Notes: generated by a model from the sequence alone, not told the origin. Positions 31,465 to 60,218 are shown, numbered from the stretch's first letter. The stretch: 64,000 nt of DNA from a bacterium (GCA_043719295.1 JAYSUD010000006.1:17318-81317); one strand, 5' to 3'. Made by a program: numbers and translations.

Positions 31465-31745
31465 TAGAGGTACAGTAGATGAACTTACTGATATGCGCGA
31501 CTCGGATACGAGCCGCGCATAACTTTTAAGAAAATAAGAAGACTGAGGCTATAACAGAGGTGAAAAAGTGCTACAGCACTTTTTCAAGACCTTGCCTAGC
31601 ATTTTCGAAGAAAATAGTGGCAAGGTGTACCTCTACATATTAAAAGAAATAGACGTAGCATTAGAAACTGAATTGACGTAATTCTAAAATTGCATTAGGA
31701 ATAGCAATTTTAGAAAGCCTCGTTCTTTCTAAATTGCTACGCTCA
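31465..31745 (+). promoter_or_regulatory. Highly structured region upstream of nusA. A 9-bp enclosing stem (TAGAGGTAC/GTACCTCTA) surrounds three hairpins. Two mutually exclusive leader hairpins lie downstream at 31684-31712 and 31702-31740.
   Basis: H1 ATGCGCGACTCG-gata-CGAGCCGCGCAT; H2 GAAAAAGTGCT-aca-AGCACTTTTTC; H3 CCTTGCC...ATTTTC-gaa-GAAAAT...GGCAAGG; leader hairpins CTAAAATTGC...GCAATTTTAG versus TAGCAATTTTAGAAAG-cctcgtt-CTTTCTAAATTGCTAC. Confidence 0.5.
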
Positions 31746-31759
31746 TAAGAAAAACGGGC

Positions 31760-33148
31760 ATGTTAGACCTAAAAGTAATTCACTCAGTATTAGCTGAGAT
31801 GGAAGAGGAGCGAGGAATTTCTCGCGAAAAGATGATGGACGCCATTGAACAGGCATTAGCTACTGCATACAAAAAAGAATACGGAAAACGAGGACAAATT
31901 GTCCGCGCTAATTTTGATATTGAATCAGGTGCAACTCTTTTTAATCAGATTAAAATTGTAGTTGACGAATCAATGCTTAAAAGTGACGAAGATCAAGATG
32001 ATGAAGCTGACCGCAATGATAAAGATGACAATTCTGGTATTACTGATCTTACAAAAAAAGTTCGTTTTGATCCTGAAAAGCACATCATGCTTGATACCGC
32101 AAAGATGATCAAAAAAGAGGTGTCGCTTGGAGAAGAACTTGTATTCCCACTTGAAAGTAAAGACGACTTTGGAAGAATTGCTGCACAAACAGCAAAGCAA
32201 GTGATTATCCAAAAGATTCGTGAGGCAGAGAAAGAATCAGCAATGACTGAGTTCGGACAAAAAGAAGGCGACATTATTATGGGACACGTACAGCGGTTTG
32301 AACGAGGGAACCTCTATGTTGACCTTGGACGTGTAACGGGTGTTATGCCGTACGACGAACAAATCCCTGGAGAGCGATTTAAACCAGGAGAACGCATTCG
32401 TGCACTATTGCTTACCGTTGATGAAACACCACGGGGTATTTTCCTTAAACTCTCACGAGCACATGCAAACTTCCTCGCAAGTTTGTTTACTATCGAAACT
32501 CCAGAGCTACAAAACGGTGCAGTAGAAATTAAATCAATTGCGCGAGAAGCGGGGGCACGAAGTAAAATTGCAGTATTTGCCCATGATCAGCACATTGATC
32601 CTGTTGGATCACTTGTAGGACAACGTGGTGTTCGCGTTTCAACCGTAATGTCGGAACTTGGAGGTGAGAAAATTGACATCATTGAATGGAGTGAGGACCC
32701 CGTAACGTTTATCGAAGATGCACTGTCTCCAGCACAAGTGTTAAAGGTAACTATTCAAACTGAACCAAATGAAGAAAATCCAAGCGATAACCGAGGTCAT
32801 GCAACCGTTGAAGTGGCAAACGACCAACAATCACTTGCAATTGGACGAGGAGGACAAAATGTTCGCCTTGCTGCCAAGTTAACTGGCTGGAAAATCGATA
32901 TTGTCTCCGTTGGAGGACCAAAAGAAGAAGAAACTATTGCGTCAATAGAGGCTAAAGCAGATGAGGACGTACTTGAACGAGAAGATGCAACCACCACAAA
33001 GCCAGAACTTCCTACCTCAGATGATACAGAGACTACTGATCGAGATGCGCTTGATCTAGGAGAGACCAGTGAAACTGATACACCTGAAGAGGCAGAGGGT
33101 GGAGTTGTAGAAGACAAGAAAGATGGAAGCGCAGATGTGACAGCATAA
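31760..33148 (+). CDS. nusA: Transcription termination/antitermination factor NusA, with an acidic C-terminal extension.
   Basis: N-terminal domain, S1 domain (GDIIMGHVQRFERGNLYVDLG) and KH domains. No rimP upstream and no infB downstream. Confidence 0.88.
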   Translation: MLDLKVIHSVLAEMEEERGISREKMMDAIEQALATAYKKEYGKRGQIVRANFDIESGATLFNQIKIVVDESMLKSDEDQDDEADRNDKDDNSGITDLTKKVRFDPEKHIMLDTAKMIKKEVSLGEELVFPLESKDDFGRIAAQTAKQVIIQKIREAEKESAMTEFGQKEGDIIMGHVQRFERGNLYVDLGRVTGVMPYDEQIPGERFKPGERIRALLLTVDETPRGIFLKLSRAHANFLASLFTIETPELQNGAVEIKSIAREAGARSKIAVFAHDQHIDPVGSLVGQRGVRVSTVMSELGGEKIDIIEWSEDPVTFIEDALSPAQVLKVTIQTEPNEENPSDNRGHATVEVANDQQSLAIGRGGQNVRLAAKLTGWKIDIVSVGGPKEEETIASIEAKADEDVLEREDATTTKPELPTSDDTETTDRDALDLGETSETDTPEEAEGGVVEDKKDGSADVTA

Positions 33149-48462: not shown

Positions 48463-48527
48463 CTTGTTAATTGGACTTATCACTGTTTGTGAGGTATTCA
48501 AGCCTCCCAGTCGCGTCTCACTAGTAT

Positions 48528-48690
48528 GTGCGGGTGAGAGGAATATCGAAACTTACAGTTTCAACTATAACCCCACCCCCAACCCACATCACCTATACAA
48601 ATAACCACCACCCTCCCTCAATCTTCAGTATTCTATCCTCTGTGCGCACTACGAATTCATTCCTCGTCTAGAATGAGGTTGTGTATTTTA
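48528..48690. repeat. tRNA-Gly 3'-end-derived element R3, the degenerate copy. Its left terminus is GTGCGGGTGAGAGGAATATCGAAACTTACAGTTTCA. It contains a 69-nt G-free tract.
   Basis: Its left end matches the reverse complement of the tRNA-Gly 3' end plus the shared CTTACAG(C/T)TTCA box. Confidence 0.55.
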
Positions 48691-48966
48691 TGACTCAAGC
48701 AACTATTCGCGCTTTTACGCGCATGACGTTGATACGTGTTTACGAGTGTCTCAGGCAGTACAACGGTATCTAGGTACCAGAAGCTGTATCGAGATCACTC
48801 AGATTCGTAGCGCACACAGAAGGCAGGACTCTTGATTGATAGGGTGTATTAGTGATGACCATTTTCCACATGACAATTGCATACGCCGTATGTAATGAAG
48901 GCTTCCCTTTTAATCAAATTTGTAGTATTGTGCTTTTATAAGAGATGTTCATTCAGGAGAATCACG

Positions 48967-49281
48967 ATGTCATCATACATCCCTACTCCACACCAAGTCG
49001 AAGTGGCTCAAATTCTTATCGCCGAACTGAAGAATCTTGACTCACAAAAAATAAATCGTCTGGGTACGTTACGCGATCTTTGTCTTTCTATCATGAGAGA
49101 ACAAATGGACGGACTCGGAATAAGGCGCGTCAAGAAAATTGAGAAAATGGTGACAGATGATTCATTCGATCATGAACTGCTCAACATCTTCATTGGAATG
49201 CGCAACGACCAACGTGATGACGATAATGAGATAACAAGAGGGATGTTTAATCGGATCCAAGTAGCTCTTGGTCTGACTTGA
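48967..49281 (+). CDS. Hypothetical protein of 104 aa.
   Basis: The AGGAGA Shine-Dalgarno sequence lies 7 nt before ATG 48967 (MSSYIPTPHQVEVAQILIAELKNLD...). The track ORF starts at 48877. Confidence 0.5.
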   Translation: MSSYIPTPHQVEVAQILIAELKNLDSQKINRLGTLRDLCLSIMREQMDGLGIRRVKKIEKMVTDDSFDHELLNIFIGMRNDQRDDDNEITRGMFNRIQVALGLT

Positions 49282-49374
49282 CGGGGAAGTAACGGCTCAG
49301 TTTTTTCTTCATTGTTGGAAGCCCGTTTGGGTCTCGCATGCTTGCGGGGCCCTTTTTTTATATTTAAAAAATTG

Positions 49375-49510
49375 CTGTGCGGGTGAGAGGAATCGAAGCT
49401 TACAGCTTCAGTACACCTTTTGGTTATTTCTTTTCGTTCCTCAAGAAATTGATCAAAAGGTCTTCGATTCCTCACGTAACCTGATACTATCAGGTTACTT
49501 CACCCGCACA
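49375..49510. repeat. tRNA-Gly 3'-end-derived MITE-like element R2. Its inverted termini are GTGCGGGTGAGAGGAATCGAAG ... CTTCGATTCCTCAC-[hairpin]-TTCACCCGCACA.
   Basis: On the tRNA strand the last 24 nt equal the tRNA-Gly 3' end plus its trailer. Internal inverted repeats CCTTTTG...CAAAAGG and GTAACCTGATA/TATCAGGTTAC are present. Confidence 0.7.
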
Positions 49511-49603
49511 CTATGTTCCAACAAAAAAGTTCCTTAAGGGGACTTTTTTGGGAACATATCTGTGCACCTTGTGGGACGATGTTAGAGAAGTTTTAAATCT
49601 GAC

Positions 49604-50071
49604 CTAACCTCTCACTAGATCAAAAAGCTCATTACACTCCTCTCTCATAAACTCTTCAAATAGTTCAAGTTTCGGGTCCCCTGCTTCGAGCACCGCTTTA
49701 CACTTCATATTAATTTGTCGCCATGAAAATCTTTCTGTAGCATGCCCTTCTGCATCTTCAATCGTTGCTCCAAACACAATCCCCCCCATACGTGCCCATA
49801 TTGCAGCTGAAGCACACATCGGACACGGTTCATGTGTTGTATATAAAACCATACCACTCAAGCGTCGCGTCTGTAATTTTGCACAAGCGTTTCTTATTGC
49901 AACTATTTCACCATGAACAGTTGGGTCATTTTCATGTTTCAGATTAGTTGTTCCCACTGAAATAATCTTTCCGTCTTTTTCTATTACAGCACCAAGTGCA
50001 TAGTCACCGTTCTTTGCAGATTCTTTAGCTGCTTCTATAGCTGCCTCCATCATTTTCTGGTTTGGTTTCAT
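49604..50071 (-). CDS. Nucleoside/tRNA-specific deaminase (TadA-like, CDA fold).
   Basis: The start is MKPNQKMMEAAIEAAK. Motifs: DPTVHGEIVAIRNA and HEPCPMCASAAIWARMGG (H[AG]E...PCxxC). The track ORF extends upstream through repeat R1. Confidence 0.8.
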   Translation of the reverse strand: MKPNQKMMEAAIEAAKESAKNGDYALGAVIEKDGKIISVGTTNLKHENDPTVHGEIVAIRNACAKLQTRRLSGMVLYTTHEPCPMCASAAIWARMGGIVFGATIEDAEGHATERFSWRQINMKCKAVLEAGDPKLELFEEFMREECNELFDLVRG

Positions 50072-50090
50072 TAGCACAAGTATAACAAAA

Positions 50091-50222
50091 GGGTGAGAGG
50101 AATCGAAGCTTACAGCTTCAGTACAGGTTGTCAGTATTTTAGTTCGCTTCGCTCTTAAACTACCAGGCAACCTTTTCGATTCCTCACGAAAGTGCGTCAA
50201 AGCACTTTCTTCACTCCGCACA
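50091..50222. repeat. tRNA-Gly 3'-end-derived MITE-like element R1. It has the same architecture as R2 but a different inserted hairpin, GAAAGTGC-gtcaa-GCACTTTC.
   Basis: GGGTGAGAGGAATCGAAGCTTACAGCTTCAGTACA...TTTTCGATTCCTCACG-hairpin-TTCACTCCGCACA. It also supplies a TGTTATACT extended -10 for the deaminase gene. Confidence 0.7.
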
Positions 50223-50227
50223 GCAAC

Positions 50228-50259
50228 AACAGAAAAACCGTCCCTAAGGACGGCTTTTC
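50228..50259 (-). terminator. Terminator directly after tRNA-Gly, AAAGCCGTCC-ttag-GGACGGTTTT plus TCTGTTGTTG on the minus strand.
   Basis: A perfect 10-bp stem 8 nt past the tRNA 3' end. Confidence 0.75.
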
Positions 50260-50269
50260 ATGTTGGCTG

Positions 50270-50340
50270 TGCGGGTGAGAGGAATCGAACCCCCGACTAC
50301 TGCTTGGAAGGCAGTCGTTTTACCACTAAACCACACCCGC
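50270..50340 (-). tRNA. tRNA-Gly (anticodon TCC).
   Basis: Manual cloverleaf: acceptor GCGGGTG/CACCCGC; D arm GTTT-AGTGGTA-AAAC; anticodon arm ACTGC-CTTCCAA-GCAGT; T arm GGGGG-TTCGATT-CCTCT; discriminator A. No CCA is encoded. Confidence 0.85.
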
Positions 50341-50416
50341 GTGTGAGTACGTAACGTGCGACATAATAGCACTTATTCCTGCAGATTTCTAGCCTCGTTT
50401 GCTATACTCACTGTAC

Positions 50417-60062: not shown

Positions 60063-60133
60063 CGGGGTGTAGCATAGTGGTAGTGTACTCGGTTTGGGAC
60101 CGAGCGGTCAGGGTTCGATTCCCTGCTCCCCGA
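60063..60133 (+). tRNA. tRNA-Pro (anticodon TGG).
   Basis: Acceptor CGGGGTG/CTCCCCG with one U-U mismatch; anticodon arm CTCGG-TTTGGGA-CCGAG; T arm CAGGG-TTCGATT-CCCTG; discriminator A. Confidence 0.8.
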
Positions 60134-60137
60134 CTTC

Positions 60138-60186
60138 ACAATAAGAAAATCCCCAAAGGTGCTCCTTTGAGGATTTTCTTATTGTC
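60138..60186 (+). terminator. Long hairpin, ACAATAAGAAAATCC...GGATTTTCTTATTGT, after tRNA-Pro.
   Basis: A stem of about 20 bp. Confidence 0.65.
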
Positions 60187-60218
60187 GGCTGAAATTTCGG
60201 ACCTATATTCACACATTT

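What the first reader, a model, noticed from the sequence alone, without database searches (positions are those of the whole stretch)
48480..50340. tRNA-Gly(TCC) followed by three ~135-180 bp elements whose inverted termini are copies of the tRNA 3' end, carrying a TadA-like deaminase and a small gene between them
On the tRNA strand each element ends with TTCGATTCCTCTCACCCGCACAGC, the exact last 24 nt of tRNA-Gly plus trailer. It begins with the reverse-complementary GCGGGTG...GTGAGGAATCGAA, and the two ends pair as 10-bp and 12-bp stems around internal hairpins. R1 and R2 carry different but equally perfect inserted hairpins at the same position (GTAACCTGATA/TATCAGGTTAC versus GAAAGTGC/GCACTTTC). 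R3 is degenerate and holds a 69-nt G-free tract. The result looks like tRNA-derived MITE-like elements, or nested att-site remnants from serial integration at the tRNA 3' end, although no integrase is present. R1 also donates the -35 and extended -10 (TGTTATACT) for an apparently leaderless deaminase mRNA. As far as I know this is not a described repeat family.
Basis: seen in the sequence. Interest (0 to 1): 0.65.

Follow-up and report, generated by a model that had tools for sequence, protein, structure and literature searches.

The report
tRNA-end-matched hairpin modules in CPR bacteria
The three repeats next to tRNA-Gly belong to a large, apparently undescribed family of about 130-nt five-helix elements that sit just downstream of many different tRNA genes in Patescibacteria (CPR), each closed by a copy of its own tRNA's 3' end, and they mark spots where accessory genes such as this deaminase are inserted.

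Summary
The repeats are real, but only one of the three is intact. They are not unique to this locus. A covariance model gave 172 hits in the fetched loci.

Of 119 copies that could be evaluated, 81 lie within 170 nt downstream of a same-strand tRNA gene. These tRNAs span 29 anticodons and 15 amino acids. No copy sits next to a tRNA on the opposite strand. Each copy's 3' arm repeats that tRNA's T-loop-to-discriminator sequence. Its 5' arm is the complement, interrupted by a hairpin. The interior (P4, GUAC, P5 with a UGUAA loop) is shared across all tRNA types.

Covariation is strong: 42 of 44 pairs show compensatory changes. Rfam, phage and plasmid collections and the paper library gave no match. 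No integrase, transposase or reverse transcriptase is linked to the elements.

In the window, the deaminase segment is an insertion into the 3' arm of the tRNA-proximal copy. A related genome has the uninterrupted junction.

The explanation I favour (about 0.4) is a miniature, gene-less integration module that folds as a single strand and mimics the tRNA gene's end, like integron attC or CTX-phage attP. Its main rival is a structured RNA. I rate it a new variant of a known kind, of high interest, with the mechanism unproven.

The parts
50270..50340 (-). tRNA-Gly(TCC). Its last 20-24 nt (TTCGATTCCTCTCACCCGCA + CAGC) form the sequence 'A' that the elements copy.
   Evidence: ARAGORN; Rfam tRNA model, 73 bits.
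50363..50391 (-). Promoter-like site upstream of the tRNA (TAGAAA-17-TATTAT, with TG).
   Evidence: Consensus scan; a consensus match only.
50232..50259 (-). Spacer hairpin 1: an intrinsic-terminator-like stem-loop between the tRNA and the proximal element. Its flanks continue the inverted repeat of the tRNA end.
   Evidence: Terminator scan; sequence.
50089..50225 (-). It has the 5' arm GCTGTGCGGAGTGA, P2 (GAAAGTGC/GCACTTTC), P3, P4, GUAC and P5. The 3' arm is cut after ...TTCGATTCCTCTCACCC.
   Evidence: Covariance model 91.4 bits at 50089-50217; fold; 17-nt identity to the tRNA only.
49581..50088 (-). Inserted cargo segment. It carries the deaminase CDS (49604-50071, 155 aa) and a possible extended -10 (TGTTATACT) 7 nt before the ATG.
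   Evidence: Pfam PF00383/PF14437. The segment is absent from the same arm-spacer junction in L135. Homolog contexts elsewhere lack the element.
49560..49580 (-). Diverged copy of the tRNA 3' end (ATCGTCCCACAAGGTGCACAG). Its last bases GCACAG continue into spacer 2 exactly as the intact 3' arm does in L135. This is the right-hand junction of the cargo.
   Evidence: Local alignment; comparison with L135.
49512..49559 (-). Spacer hairpin 2 (ATATGTTCCCAAAAAAGTCCCC TTAAGG AACTTTTTTGTTGGAACAT), orthologous to the spacer between the two tandem copies in L135.
   Evidence: the repeat finder I7/I8/I14; L135 sequence.
49374..49512 (-). Middle element copy, the only intact one. P1 is 8 bp plus 3 bp of trailer. 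P2 is GTAACCTGATA/TATCAGGTTAC. P3 is GAGGAATCGAAG/CTTCGATTCCTC. P4, GUAC and P5 (GAAGC UGUAA GCUUC) follow, then the exact 24-nt tRNA end.
   Evidence: Covariance model 106.7 bits; fold z -9.2; exact 24-mer.
48967..49281 (+). Small ORF (104 aa) between the middle and distal copies, opposite strand, followed by a terminator at 49329-49352. Rare accessory gene.
   Evidence: Translation; no Pfam or PHROG match; one credible homolog (42% identity, E 9e-9) among 1.84 billion representatives; terminator.
48529..48698 (-). Distal, degenerate copy. The 3' arm has a 2-nt insertion, P5 is kept as GAAAC/GUUUC, and P4 is replaced by a 69-nt tract (48559-48627) that is G-free on the + strand and G-rich on the tRNA-sense strand. 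A remnant of the P3 5' strand reads GAGGAATGAA.
   Evidence: Covariance model 17 bits, E 0.014; fold z about 0; G-free run.

Best explanation
The repeats are copies of a miniature, gene-less integration module specific for tRNA 3' ends. Call 'A' the tRNA's last 20-25 nt plus a few trailer bases. Each unit then reads: A, spacer hairpin, A' (the complement of A, split by hairpin P2), P4, GUAC, P5, A.

This is the product expected when a small circle carrying one A is joined to the tRNA gene by a crossover inside A, in a circle where A pairs with A' to make a stem that copies the duplex end of the tRNA gene. The two closest precedents are the folded single-stranded attP of CTX phage and integron attC sites.

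The tRNA is regenerated with the element's spacer hairpin acting as its terminator. The second A is left downstream. That downstream A, held in the P1/P3 stem, then acts as a landing pad. Further units stack there to form tandem arrays, and accessory genes such as the deaminase insert there.

The recombinase is not encoded next to the elements, so it must act in trans. A host Xer-like tyrosine recombinase is the obvious candidate.

What is shown: the architecture, the matching to the local tRNA, the covariation, the arrays and the cargo junctions. What is inferred: the circular single-stranded intermediate, the crossover point and the enzyme.
For: 1. Architecture and matching. In 81 of 119 evaluable copies the core lies within 170 nt downstream of a same-strand tRNA, and in none beside an opposite-strand tRNA. 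The tRNAs cover 29 anticodons. The 3' arm repeats that tRNA's T-loop-to-discriminator stretch, typically 21-25 nt and sometimes into the trailer.

2. The palindrome is centred on the tRNA side. The flank 5' of A' is more complementary to the tRNA's own trailer than to the sequence after the 3' arm (28 cases against 13, p = 0.002). This is expected if A, spacer and A' enter as one piece.

3. Selection acts on a single-strand fold, not on the sequence. 88.4% of cells are paired against 59% in shuffles. 42 of 44 pairs show double changes. The covariation score is 0.53, against 0.14 in shuffles and at most 0.11 in slid controls. The tRNA-sense strand folds better in 77 of 88 copies (p about 1e-13). 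C-GNA-G mini-hairpins cap P4 in 22 of 89 copies, against 2 of 89 for the reverse-complement motif.

4. Units are about 185 nt, too short to bend into a double-stranded circle. Identical tandem units occur in L074 and L129, and diverged tandems in L135, L011, L018 and L022.

5. Cargo sits inside or next to the 3' arm. The window deaminase segment interrupts ...CTCTCACCC|GCACAG..., which is continuous in L135. The same break point, with different downstream DNA, occurs in L009, L048 and L080. L022 has four copies separating accessory genes (MOSC-domain ORF and ORFs without a Pfam match), with Fic/RhuM and zeta-toxin genes flanking the array; three of the copies are preceded by a conserved variant of A.

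6. Presence is patchy at orthologous tRNA sites. L146 is filled and L151 empty. L135 has two copies and L138 none. tRNA-Gly(GCC) is filled in L043, L056 and L130 and empty in L147-L150. The P4/P5 interior has been swapped at otherwise conserved sites.

7. A terminator usually separates the tRNA from the element and leaves no room for a promoter. This argues against a dedicated transcript.

8. Weak context. The sense strand is the lagging-strand template in the window (negative GC skew throughout), and the genome encodes ComEC and type IV pilus competence genes.
Against: 1. No recombinase is identified. No integrase, transposase or reverse transcriptase appears among 103 first-downstream ORFs, among the Pfam families matched by 3 or more of 150 mid-size ORFs, or among the 10 recurrent ORF clusters checked. 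A crude motif screen of 691 ORFs found one Xer-like protein.

2. No free circle, empty-site read or phage or plasmid copy was seen.

3. If the crossover lay in the conserved T-loop, a move to a different tRNA would wreck that tRNA. How A and A' are retargeted to 29 anticodon types while sharing one core is therefore unexplained.

4. The G.T versus A.C bias is only about 2:1 outside P4a and is not significant overall (160 against 132). Single-stranded DNA and RNA cannot be told apart.

5. For the two good window copies the antisense fold is slightly more stable than the sense fold.

6. In about a third of cases no terminator separates the tRNA from the element, so those copies are probably co-transcribed.

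7. The filled and empty sites (L146 against L151) differ by a replacement, not a clean insertion.
Confidence: 0.4

Rival explanations
1. A structured non-coding RNA family. The element is transcribed, by read-through or together with the tRNA. It folds into P1-P5 with a closing helix that copies the acceptor stem, discriminator and T region of its tRNA. It might be trimmed by RNase P and RNase Z, receive CCA, and act as a tRNA-specific mimic, decoy, sponge or processing element.
For: Five helices show very strong covariation. Loop and junction motifs are conserved: P5 loop UGUAA in 87 of 96 copies, J4/5 GUACU, J3/4 GAAR, and P2 loops UGGGA or CUGC. The tRNA-sense strand folds better in 77 of 88 copies, with more G.U pairs. 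Orientation is strictly the same as the tRNA. In the short-spacer class no terminator lies between tRNA and element, and one follows the element instead. A subclass has gained an extra covarying mini-hairpin, as RNA families often do.
Against: In the majority class a good intrinsic terminator lies between the tRNA and the element, with no space for a promoter. The identity to the tRNA is at sequence level. It runs through the T-loop letters, which are base-paired in the element rather than forming a T-loop, and it often runs into the trailer. P1 often extends past the acceptor stem. Presence is patchy at orthologous sites, and many copies have truncated 3' arms with cargo inserted. ARAGORN and the Rfam tRNA model do not see the elements as tRNA-like. 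No mechanism explains why an RNA gene would always copy its neighbour.
Confidence: 0.25
2. Ordinary attachment-site debris. Conventional double-stranded integrative islands with tyrosine integrases have integrated serially at tRNA 3' ends, as in tycheposons and other tRNA islands. The repeats are attL/attR cores plus attP arm sequence, and the hairpins are incidental or are protein-binding dyads.
For: Direct repeats of partial tRNA flank cargo modules, and the copy farthest from the tRNA is the most decayed. This matches the described behaviour of serial integration (bioRxiv 10.1101/2020.12.28.424599, read). Genes beyond the element differ between relatives: deaminase, GrpB, RelB/YafQ.
Against: Most copies have no cargo at all and sit in housekeeping neighbourhoods. 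No integrases or integrase fragments are found. Protein-binding dyads conserve sequence, whereas here sequence is free and pairing is kept. One core is shared across 29 tRNA anticodon types, although tRNA-targeting integrases are normally tRNA-specific (own knowledge; also stated in the paper read).
Confidence: 0.15
3. A non-functional by-product. Fold-back (snap-back) repair at the tRNA terminator hairpin creates inverted duplications of the tRNA end. These then spread by unequal crossing-over and gene conversion, with no role of their own.
For: A continuous palindrome runs from the tRNA end and trailer, through the terminator loop, to the complement. Identical tandem duplications exist.
Against: This does not explain the shared P4-GUAC-P5 core at unrelated tRNAs, the fixed end of A' at the T-loop, the P2 branch, or the maintenance of pairing through hundreds of compensatory changes.
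Confidence: 0.1
4. A classical MITE mobilised by a DDE or HUH transposase encoded elsewhere in the genome.
For: The elements are short, gene-less, present in multiple copies, and have inverted termini.
Against: The termini differ from copy to copy and equal the local tRNA end. There is no target-site duplication outside the arms. Copies are never dispersed away from tRNA-end-like sequence and are never inverted relative to the tRNA. No transposase family recurs.
Confidence: 0.05

Closest known systems
Integron attC sites (cassette recombination sites)
   Same: Both are 60-140-nt imperfect inverted repeats. In both, structure is conserved rather than sequence, one strand folds, and two stem segments lead to a variable terminal structure with unpaired features on one arm only. 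Both separate small accessory genes in arrays next to a fixed docking site, and neither cassette encodes its own recombinase (own knowledge; PMC5027507, listed).
   Different: There is no RYYYAAC/GTTRRRY core. No intI, attI or Pc platform was found. The arms are a copy of the neighbouring tRNA's 3' end. Most copies carry no cargo. The interior has a conserved sequence core (GUAC, and P5 with a UGUAA loop). The host is Patescibacteria.
CTX-phage attP(+) and other Xer-dependent integrating elements (IMEX)
   Same: In both, two inverted segments of one strand pair to imitate the duplex chromosomal target, and a host recombinase acts in trans. Integration by one strand exchange followed by replication would give target-loop-complement ... 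target. That is the order seen here: A, hairpin, A' ... A (PMC3442271 and PMC3089051, listed; the order is my own derivation).
   Different: The target here is a tRNA 3' end, not dif. The unit is about 185 nt with no genes, not a phage. No Xer-site similarity was shown and no free form was seen.
tRNA-targeting genomic islands with partial-tRNA repeats (e.g. tycheposons) and integrase-less cis-mobilisable elements
   Same: Both show direct repeats of the tRNA 3' part flanking cargo, stacking at one tRNA with older material pushed outward, and variable accessory genes (bioRxiv 10.1101/2020.12.28.424599).
   Different: Those elements carry tRNA-specific integrases and have no inverted arm or conserved folded module. 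Here one module serves 29 anticodon types and no integrase is found.
Bacterial MITEs and REP/BIME-type palindromic repeats
   Same: Both are short, non-coding, hairpin-forming, multi-copy and intergenic.
   Different: Those have constant termini and dispersed sites. Here the termini are tRNA-specific, the position and orientation are fixed, and the fold is a five-helix structure.
tRNA-like RNA structures (viral 3' TLS, mascRNA, YrlA tRNA-like module, tmRNA TLD)
   Same: The closing helix has the acceptor-stem sequence and discriminator of a tRNA, continuous with a second stacked helix.
   Different: There is no T-loop/D-loop elbow, because the T-loop letters are base-paired. There is no anticodon-arm analogue. 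The element matches its neighbour tRNA at DNA-sequence level, including the trailer. tRNA models do not detect it.

Membership tests
tRNA / tRNA pseudogene | Cloverleaf with D, anticodon and T arms that tRNA models can detect | tested here: not met
   ARAGORN finds only tRNA-Gly and tRNA-Pro in the window. The Rfam tRNA model hits only the true tRNAs, even at E up to 10.
Any Rfam 15 family | Covariance-model match at or near the gathering score | tested here: not met
   No family overlaps the elements apart from chance microRNA-level hits far below gathering score.
MITE | Terminal inverted repeats that are the same in all copies | tested here: not met
   The arms equal the 3' end of whichever tRNA lies upstream, across 29 anticodons.
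MITE | Target-site duplication flanking the inverted repeats; dispersed insertion sites in either orientation | tested here: not met
   No direct repeat lies outside the arms. 96 of 119 copies lie downstream of a same-strand tRNA, and none lies beside an opposite-strand tRNA.
Integron attC | Inverse core RYYYAAC and core GTTRRRY at the two ends | tested here: not met
   The ends are tRNA acceptor-strand sequences, e.g. GCGGGTGA...TCACCCGCA.
Integron attC | Single-strand hairpin with conserved structure, variable sequence and asymmetric unpaired features | tested here: met
   Covariation in 42 of 44 pairs. The P2 branch sits on the 5' arm only. A strand asymmetry is present.
Integron attC | Adjacent intI integrase, attI and Pc platform | tested here: not met
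   No integrase family appears among ORFs next to the elements or in the window families shown. Whole genomes could not be searched.
tRNA-integrating island att sites (tycheposon-like) | Direct repeats of partial tRNA flanking cargo | tested here: met
   Window: the proximal 3' arm and the diverged copy at 49560-49580 flank the deaminase. L022: three of the four copies are preceded by a conserved variant of A, so that cargo between copies is flanked by a 3' arm and that variant.
tRNA-integrating island att sites (tycheposon-like) | Element-encoded, tRNA-specific integrase at one end | tested here: not met
   None found in the window region or in 133 loci.
CTX-type IMEX (folded single-stranded attP using host Xer) | Inverted segments that pair to mimic the chromosomal target; integrated order is target, loop, complement ... 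target | tested here: met
   The order A, hairpin, A' ... A is seen at 81 tRNAs. The palindrome is continuous on the tRNA side.
CTX-type IMEX (folded single-stranded attP using host Xer) | Target is dif; recombination by XerC/XerD; single-stranded replicative form exists | not testable with these tools
   No dif similarity is evident, and no free form was found in viral, phage or plasmid collections. Enzyme use needs experiments.
TadA (tRNA adenosine-34 deaminase), for the cargo gene | CDA-fold zinc deaminase with TadA-specific orthology | tested here: inconclusive
   The gene matches the general families PF00383 and PF14437. Homologs are named 'nucleoside deaminase' or TadA by different sources, and the closest named ones are DPANN archaeal.

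The most novel reading that the evidence does not exclude
Each element is made as a roughly 130-nt RNA that carries the acceptor stem and discriminator of one particular tRNA. It would be released by the tRNA-processing enzymes and given CCA. Patescibacteria would then hold a parallel set of tRNA-specific acceptor mimics for at least 15 amino acids. These might be charged, or might act as decoys or sensors for enzymes that read tRNA acceptor ends. A related radical reading is that the 185-nt unit moves as a single-stranded circle, DNA or RNA. That would make it the smallest known self-targeting mobile element.
Probability: 0.2. Interest if true: 0.9.

Novelty: new variant of a known kind. Interest (0 to 1): 0.75.

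Why it matters
Patescibacteria (CPR) make up a large share of bacterial diversity, have tiny genomes, and are thought to carry few mobile elements. How they gain accessory genes is poorly understood.

In the contigs examined, 81 of 168 tRNA genes are followed by a conserved, heavily covarying module built from that tRNA's own 3' end. Accessory genes sit in or beside its 3' arm, among them a deaminase whose nearest named relatives are DPANN archaeal, and toxin genes.

If the module is a folded attachment site, it would be an integron-like or CTX-like gene-capture system in a new phylum. It would use tRNA ends as docking sites and a recombinase acting in trans. If it is an RNA, it is a new large family of tRNA-end mimics.

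Either way there are practical consequences. It is a ready-made covariance model for annotating CPR genomes. It explains at least one gene-call error: the public 205-aa deaminase model starts inside the element. It also gives a defined sequence for recombination or RNA experiments.

Tried and rejected
1. Rfam at a permissive threshold over the region and at gathering threshold over the whole window: only the tRNAs matched.

2. Viral contigs, INPHARED phages and PLSDB plasmids: no copy.

3. A linked enzyme. Pfam on 103 first-downstream ORFs, on 10 recurrent ORF clusters and on 150 mid-size ORFs, plus a tyrosine-recombinase motif screen of 691 ORFs, found only housekeeping or accessory genes and one Xer-like protein 5 kb from an element.

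4. A roughly 220-aa protein with an HTH domain and a LAGLIDADG-like motif, whose gene abuts the 5' end of the tRNA in 9 element loci, looked like a partner. Unselected homologs sit in a fixed synteny (cupin, HTH gene, tRNA-Gly(GCC), UPF0102), and most of those tRNA-Gly sites lack the element. I rejected it as a partner.

5. The deaminase as a dedicated cassette gene. Its homologs in other genomes lie in ordinary contexts without the element.

6. Reading the P3/P4/P5 junction as a hammerhead-like core (CUGA..., GAA, GUA): the required CUGAUGA/GAAA pattern is not met, and Rfam ribozyme models are silent.

7. Reading the 5' arm as a retroviral-type primer-binding site: there is no CCA complement and no reverse transcriptase nearby.

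8. A clean empty-site comparison. L138 has only hairpins and no model hit. L151 against L146 differs by a replacement of the terminator region, so exact insertion boundaries could not be defined.

9. G.T against A.C counts to separate RNA from DNA and fix the strand: only a weak signal.

10. Six searches for a prior description of such an element (a seventh failed on a term error) found none.
Full report
**Naming.** I name the three window copies by position. The proximal copy is 50089-50225, next to the tRNA. The middle copy is 49374-49512. The distal copy is 48529-48698. All three lie on the minus strand, the same strand as tRNA-Gly(TCC) at 50270-50340. 'A' stands for the tRNA's T-loop-to-discriminator sequence plus a few trailer bases, and A' for its complement.

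**1. The observation.**
- The 17-mer GGGTGAGAGGAATCGAA occurs three times in the window against 0.04 expected. The repeat finder recovers the direct and inverted arms.
- Only the middle copy carries the exact 24-nt tRNA end.
- The proximal copy shares 17 nt. Its 3' arm stops after ...CTCTCACCC, and its 5' arm has one extra base (GCGGAGTGA).
- The distal copy is degenerate. Its P4 is replaced by the 69-nt G-free tract, which is real and is the longest such run in the window.
- The middle and proximal copies fold far better than shuffled sequence. The distal copy does not.
- The proposed deaminase promoter is not found by the consensus scan. The tRNA promoter and the terminator between the tRNA and the proximal copy are found.

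**2. The elements are not local.**
- A core pattern taken from the two good copies found 13 loci in a one-genome-per-species collection. Eleven are titled Parcubacteria, Patescibacteria, Paceibacterota/Paceibacteria, Taylorbacteria, Zambryskibacteria or Kaiserbacteria MAGs, and two are titled Saccharibacteria MAGs.
- A covariance model with 131 positions and 44 pairs scores the middle copy at 106.7 bits, the proximal at 91.4 and the distal at 17. It gives 96 + 76 hits in the fetched loci, including copies that lack the exact search pattern.
- Rfam has no matching family. Phage and plasmid collections have no copy. Six searches for a prior description found none.

**3. The key regularity.**
- Of 119 exact-core copies with enough upstream sequence, 81 lie within 170 nt downstream of a same-strand tRNA gene. 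Fifteen lie 171-1200 nt downstream, in arrays. Twenty-three have no same-strand tRNA within 1.2 kb. None is next to an opposite-strand tRNA.
- The tRNAs cover 29 anticodons and 15 amino acids. In these contigs 81 of 168 tRNA genes carry an element.
- The element's 3' arm is a direct repeat of the last 20-21 nt of whichever tRNA lies upstream, often plus a few trailer bases.
- The 5' arm is the complement of that sequence, split by a hairpin (P2) at a slightly variable position.
- The interior is common to all tRNA types. It consists of junction GAAR, a long bipartite hairpin P4, GUACU, and a 5-bp hairpin P5 with loop UGUAA.
- A subclass has an extra covarying mini-hairpin inside the T-loop copy.

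**4. A fold is under selection.**
- On the model alignment of 96 copies, 88.4% of cells pair against 59% in shuffles. 42 of 44 pairs show changes on both sides. The covariation score is 0.53, against 0.14 for shuffles and at most 0.11 for slid controls. The alignment is fitted to the model, which inflates these values somewhat.
- The raw sequences show entirely different P2 and P4 sequences with the pairing kept.
- The tRNA-sense strand folds better than its complement in 77 of 88 copies, by a mean of 5 kcal/mol (p about 1e-13). The two good window copies go slightly the other way.
- G.T exceeds A.C clearly in P2 (27 against 7) and in upper P4 (35 against 14), but not overall (160 against 132).
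- P4 is often capped by C-GNA-G, in 22 of 89 copies against 2 of 89 for the reverse-complement motif. From my own knowledge, GCGAAGC-type GNA mini-hairpins are a hallmark of very stable DNA hairpins. This is a hint, not a test.

**5. DNA-level history.**
- The tRNA end and trailer, the spacer hairpin and the 5' arm form one continuous palindrome. Its tRNA-side pairing reaches further than the pairing with the 3' arm (28 against 13 cases, p = 0.002).
- In the majority class the spacer hairpin is a good intrinsic terminator with no room for a promoter. In the short-spacer class a small GNA-type loop joins the tRNA directly to the 5' arm, and a terminator follows the element.
- Identical 185-nt tandem units occur in L074 and L129. 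Diverged tandems occur in L135, L011 and L018.
- Presence is patchy at orthologous sites. Among relatives found through the neighbouring protease gene, L135/L136 (75% protein identity) have two tandem copies. L138/L139 (71%) have none that the model detects.
- tRNA-Arg(TCG) is filled in L144 and L146 and empty in L151. tRNA-Gly(GCC) is filled in L043, L056 and L130 and empty in L147-L150.
- At orthologous sites the spacer, 5' arm and P2 stem can be about 90% identical while P4/P5 is of a different type. This holds for the window middle copy against the second copy in L135, and for the window proximal copy against L001 and L074. The interior has therefore been exchanged.

**6. The cargo.**
- In L135 the first copy's 3' arm runs straight into the next spacer...CTCTCACCCGCACAGATATGTTCCCAAAAAAGTCCCC....
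- In the window the same sequence is split. The left side is ...CTCTCACCC, at 50089. The right side, GCACAGATATGTTCCC..., resumes within 49560-49580.
- Between them lie about 508 bp that contain only the deaminase gene.
- The deaminase is therefore an insertion into the 3' arm of the proximal copy, or has been deleted in L135.
- The same break point (CACCC|), with unrelated downstream DNA, occurs in L009, L048 and L080.
- L022 carries four co-oriented copies in 9.5 kb with no tRNA. Between the copies lie a MOSC-domain ORF and ORFs without a Pfam match; Fic/RhuM and zeta-toxin genes flank the array. Three of the four copies are preceded by a conserved variant of the tRNA end (CCAACTCCA..GGCGCAC) and a spacer hairpin; the fourth follows the first copy's 3' arm directly.
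- Genes beyond the element at tRNA-Gly(TCC) differ between relatives: deaminase here, GrpB in L135, RelB/YafQ in L138.
- Apart from tiny contigs at 81-83% identity, the deaminase's nearest homologs are 65-73% identical. Many are labelled DPANN archaeal nucleoside deaminases, and they lie in ordinary contexts without the element.
- The public gene model (205 aa) starts inside the proximal copy and is probably too long.
- The small ORF has one credible homolog among 1.84 billion representative proteins.

**7. No enzyme in cis.**
- No integrase, transposase or reverse transcriptase appears among 103 first-downstream ORFs, the 10 recurrent ORF clusters checked, or the families shared by 3 or more of 150 mid-size ORFs. 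A motif screen of 691 ORFs finds a single Xer-like protein.
- A gene encoding an HTH domain and a LAGLIDADG-like motif, which abuts the tRNA 5' end in nine loci, is a syntenic resident unrelated to element presence.
- The window is a housekeeping chromosomal region. It includes ComEC and type IV pilus genes.

**8. Interpretation.**
- The order A, hairpin, A' (with P2), P4, P5, A is what integration of a small circle bearing one A would produce, if A pairs with A' into a stem that imitates the duplex end of the tRNA gene and one crossover occurs inside A.
- CTX phage integrates its folded single strand at dif in this way (PMC3442271). Integron attC sites are a second precedent for structure-defined, strand-specific recombination sites that separate accessory cassettes (PMC5027507).
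- This reading accounts for several findings: the matching of both arms to the local tRNA, the palindrome centred on the tRNA side, the element-borne terminator, the second terminator after the element, the tandem arrays, the 185-nt unit size, the single-strand covariation, the cargo at the 3' arm, and the lack of a local recombinase.
- It leaves open which enzyme acts, whether the strand is DNA or RNA, and how both arms are retargeted among 29 tRNA anticodon types while sharing one core.
- The main rival is a transcribed structured RNA that mimics its tRNA's acceptor end. That rival explains the conserved loops and orientation as well. It fits poorly with the upstream terminators, the sequence-level identity running into the trailer, the patchy presence and the truncated arms.
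- Plain att debris, repair scars and classical MITEs each fail on the shared covarying core or on the tRNA-specific termini.

**9. Verdict.** It belongs to a widespread, apparently undescribed family of tRNA-end-matched folded modules in Patescibacteria, associated with insertion of accessory genes. I rate it a new variant of a known kind (single-strand-folded or tRNA-targeted integration sites), with interest 0.75. My confidence in the favoured mechanism is about 0.4.

Noticed in passing
window 31555-31687 (+): Weak model hit (18.8 bits). It has a P2-like hairpin (AAAAAGTGC-TACA-GCACTTTTT), a P4-like hairpin and GTAC, closed by AGAGGT/ACCTCT. It has no tRNA-derived arms and no P5. It lies in a 420-nt intergenic region upstream of ORF 31760-33148. 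It may be a relic or a related structure.
   Followed up: partly
L027, L033, L043, L056, L060, L090, L107, L112, L130; unselected homologs in L144-L151: A gene for a roughly 220-aa protein with an N-terminal HTH and one LAGLIDADG-like motif (LFxAGxxLYxxEGxK) ends 0-50 nt (0-18 nt in eight of nine loci) before, or overlaps, the 5' end of tRNA-Gly(GCC), Tyr, Trp or Arg(TCG). The family is widespread in Patescibacteria and sits in the synteny cupin, HTH gene, tRNA-Gly, UPF0102. Its C-terminal domain has no Pfam match. It is not tied to the element.
   Followed up: yes
window 49604-50221 (-): The public gene model for the deaminase is 205 aa (P0121). It starts at a GTG inside the proximal element. 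The 155-aa ATG start at 50071 matches the length of all homologs, so the public model looks over-extended.
   Followed up: partly
window 49604-50071 (-): Outside tiny contigs, the deaminase's closest relatives (65-73% identity) are mostly labelled DPANN archaea (Nanoarchaeota, Woesearchaeota, Pacearchaeota, Altiarchaeota). This suggests gene exchange between CPR bacteria and DPANN archaea.
   Followed up: no
window 48559-48627: The 69-nt G-free run is G-rich on the tRNA-sense strand (GGGAGGGTGGTGG...GGGTTGGGGGTGGGG). It replaces P4 of the distal copy and could form a G-quadruplex.
   Followed up: no
L019, L020, L032, L039, L042, L046, L060, L068, L075, L083, L087, L093, L099, L103, L105, L106, L111: A subclass of the element has a 13-15-nt covarying mini-hairpin (GCG-TAAT-CGC, ATG-TACT-CAT or GTG-TAAT-CAC) inserted inside the T-loop copy, between P5 and the P3 3' strand.
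   Followed up: no
window 60063-60200: tRNA-Pro(TGG) has no element, only a terminator. The terminator stem reaches 4 nt into the acceptor 3' strand (CCGA/TCGG). A related contig (L017) has a half-degenerate element at the same tRNA type.
   Followed up: partly
L022 1-9480: An accessory island with four element copies and no tRNA gene. It includes RhuM/Fic, MOSC and zeta-toxin genes and several ORFs without a family.
   Followed up: partly
window 48967-49281 (+): The small ORF is nearly an orphan. It has one credible homolog (42% identity, E 9e-9) in 1.84 billion representative proteins.
   Followed up: yes
L138 3534-3822 (-): At the orthologous tRNA-Gly(TCC) site of a 71%-identity relative the model finds nothing. 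Several unrelated perfect hairpins still follow the terminator, one with AGGT...ACCT ends like P4. This may be a very old relic or a different module. RelB/YafQ lies beyond.
   Followed up: partly
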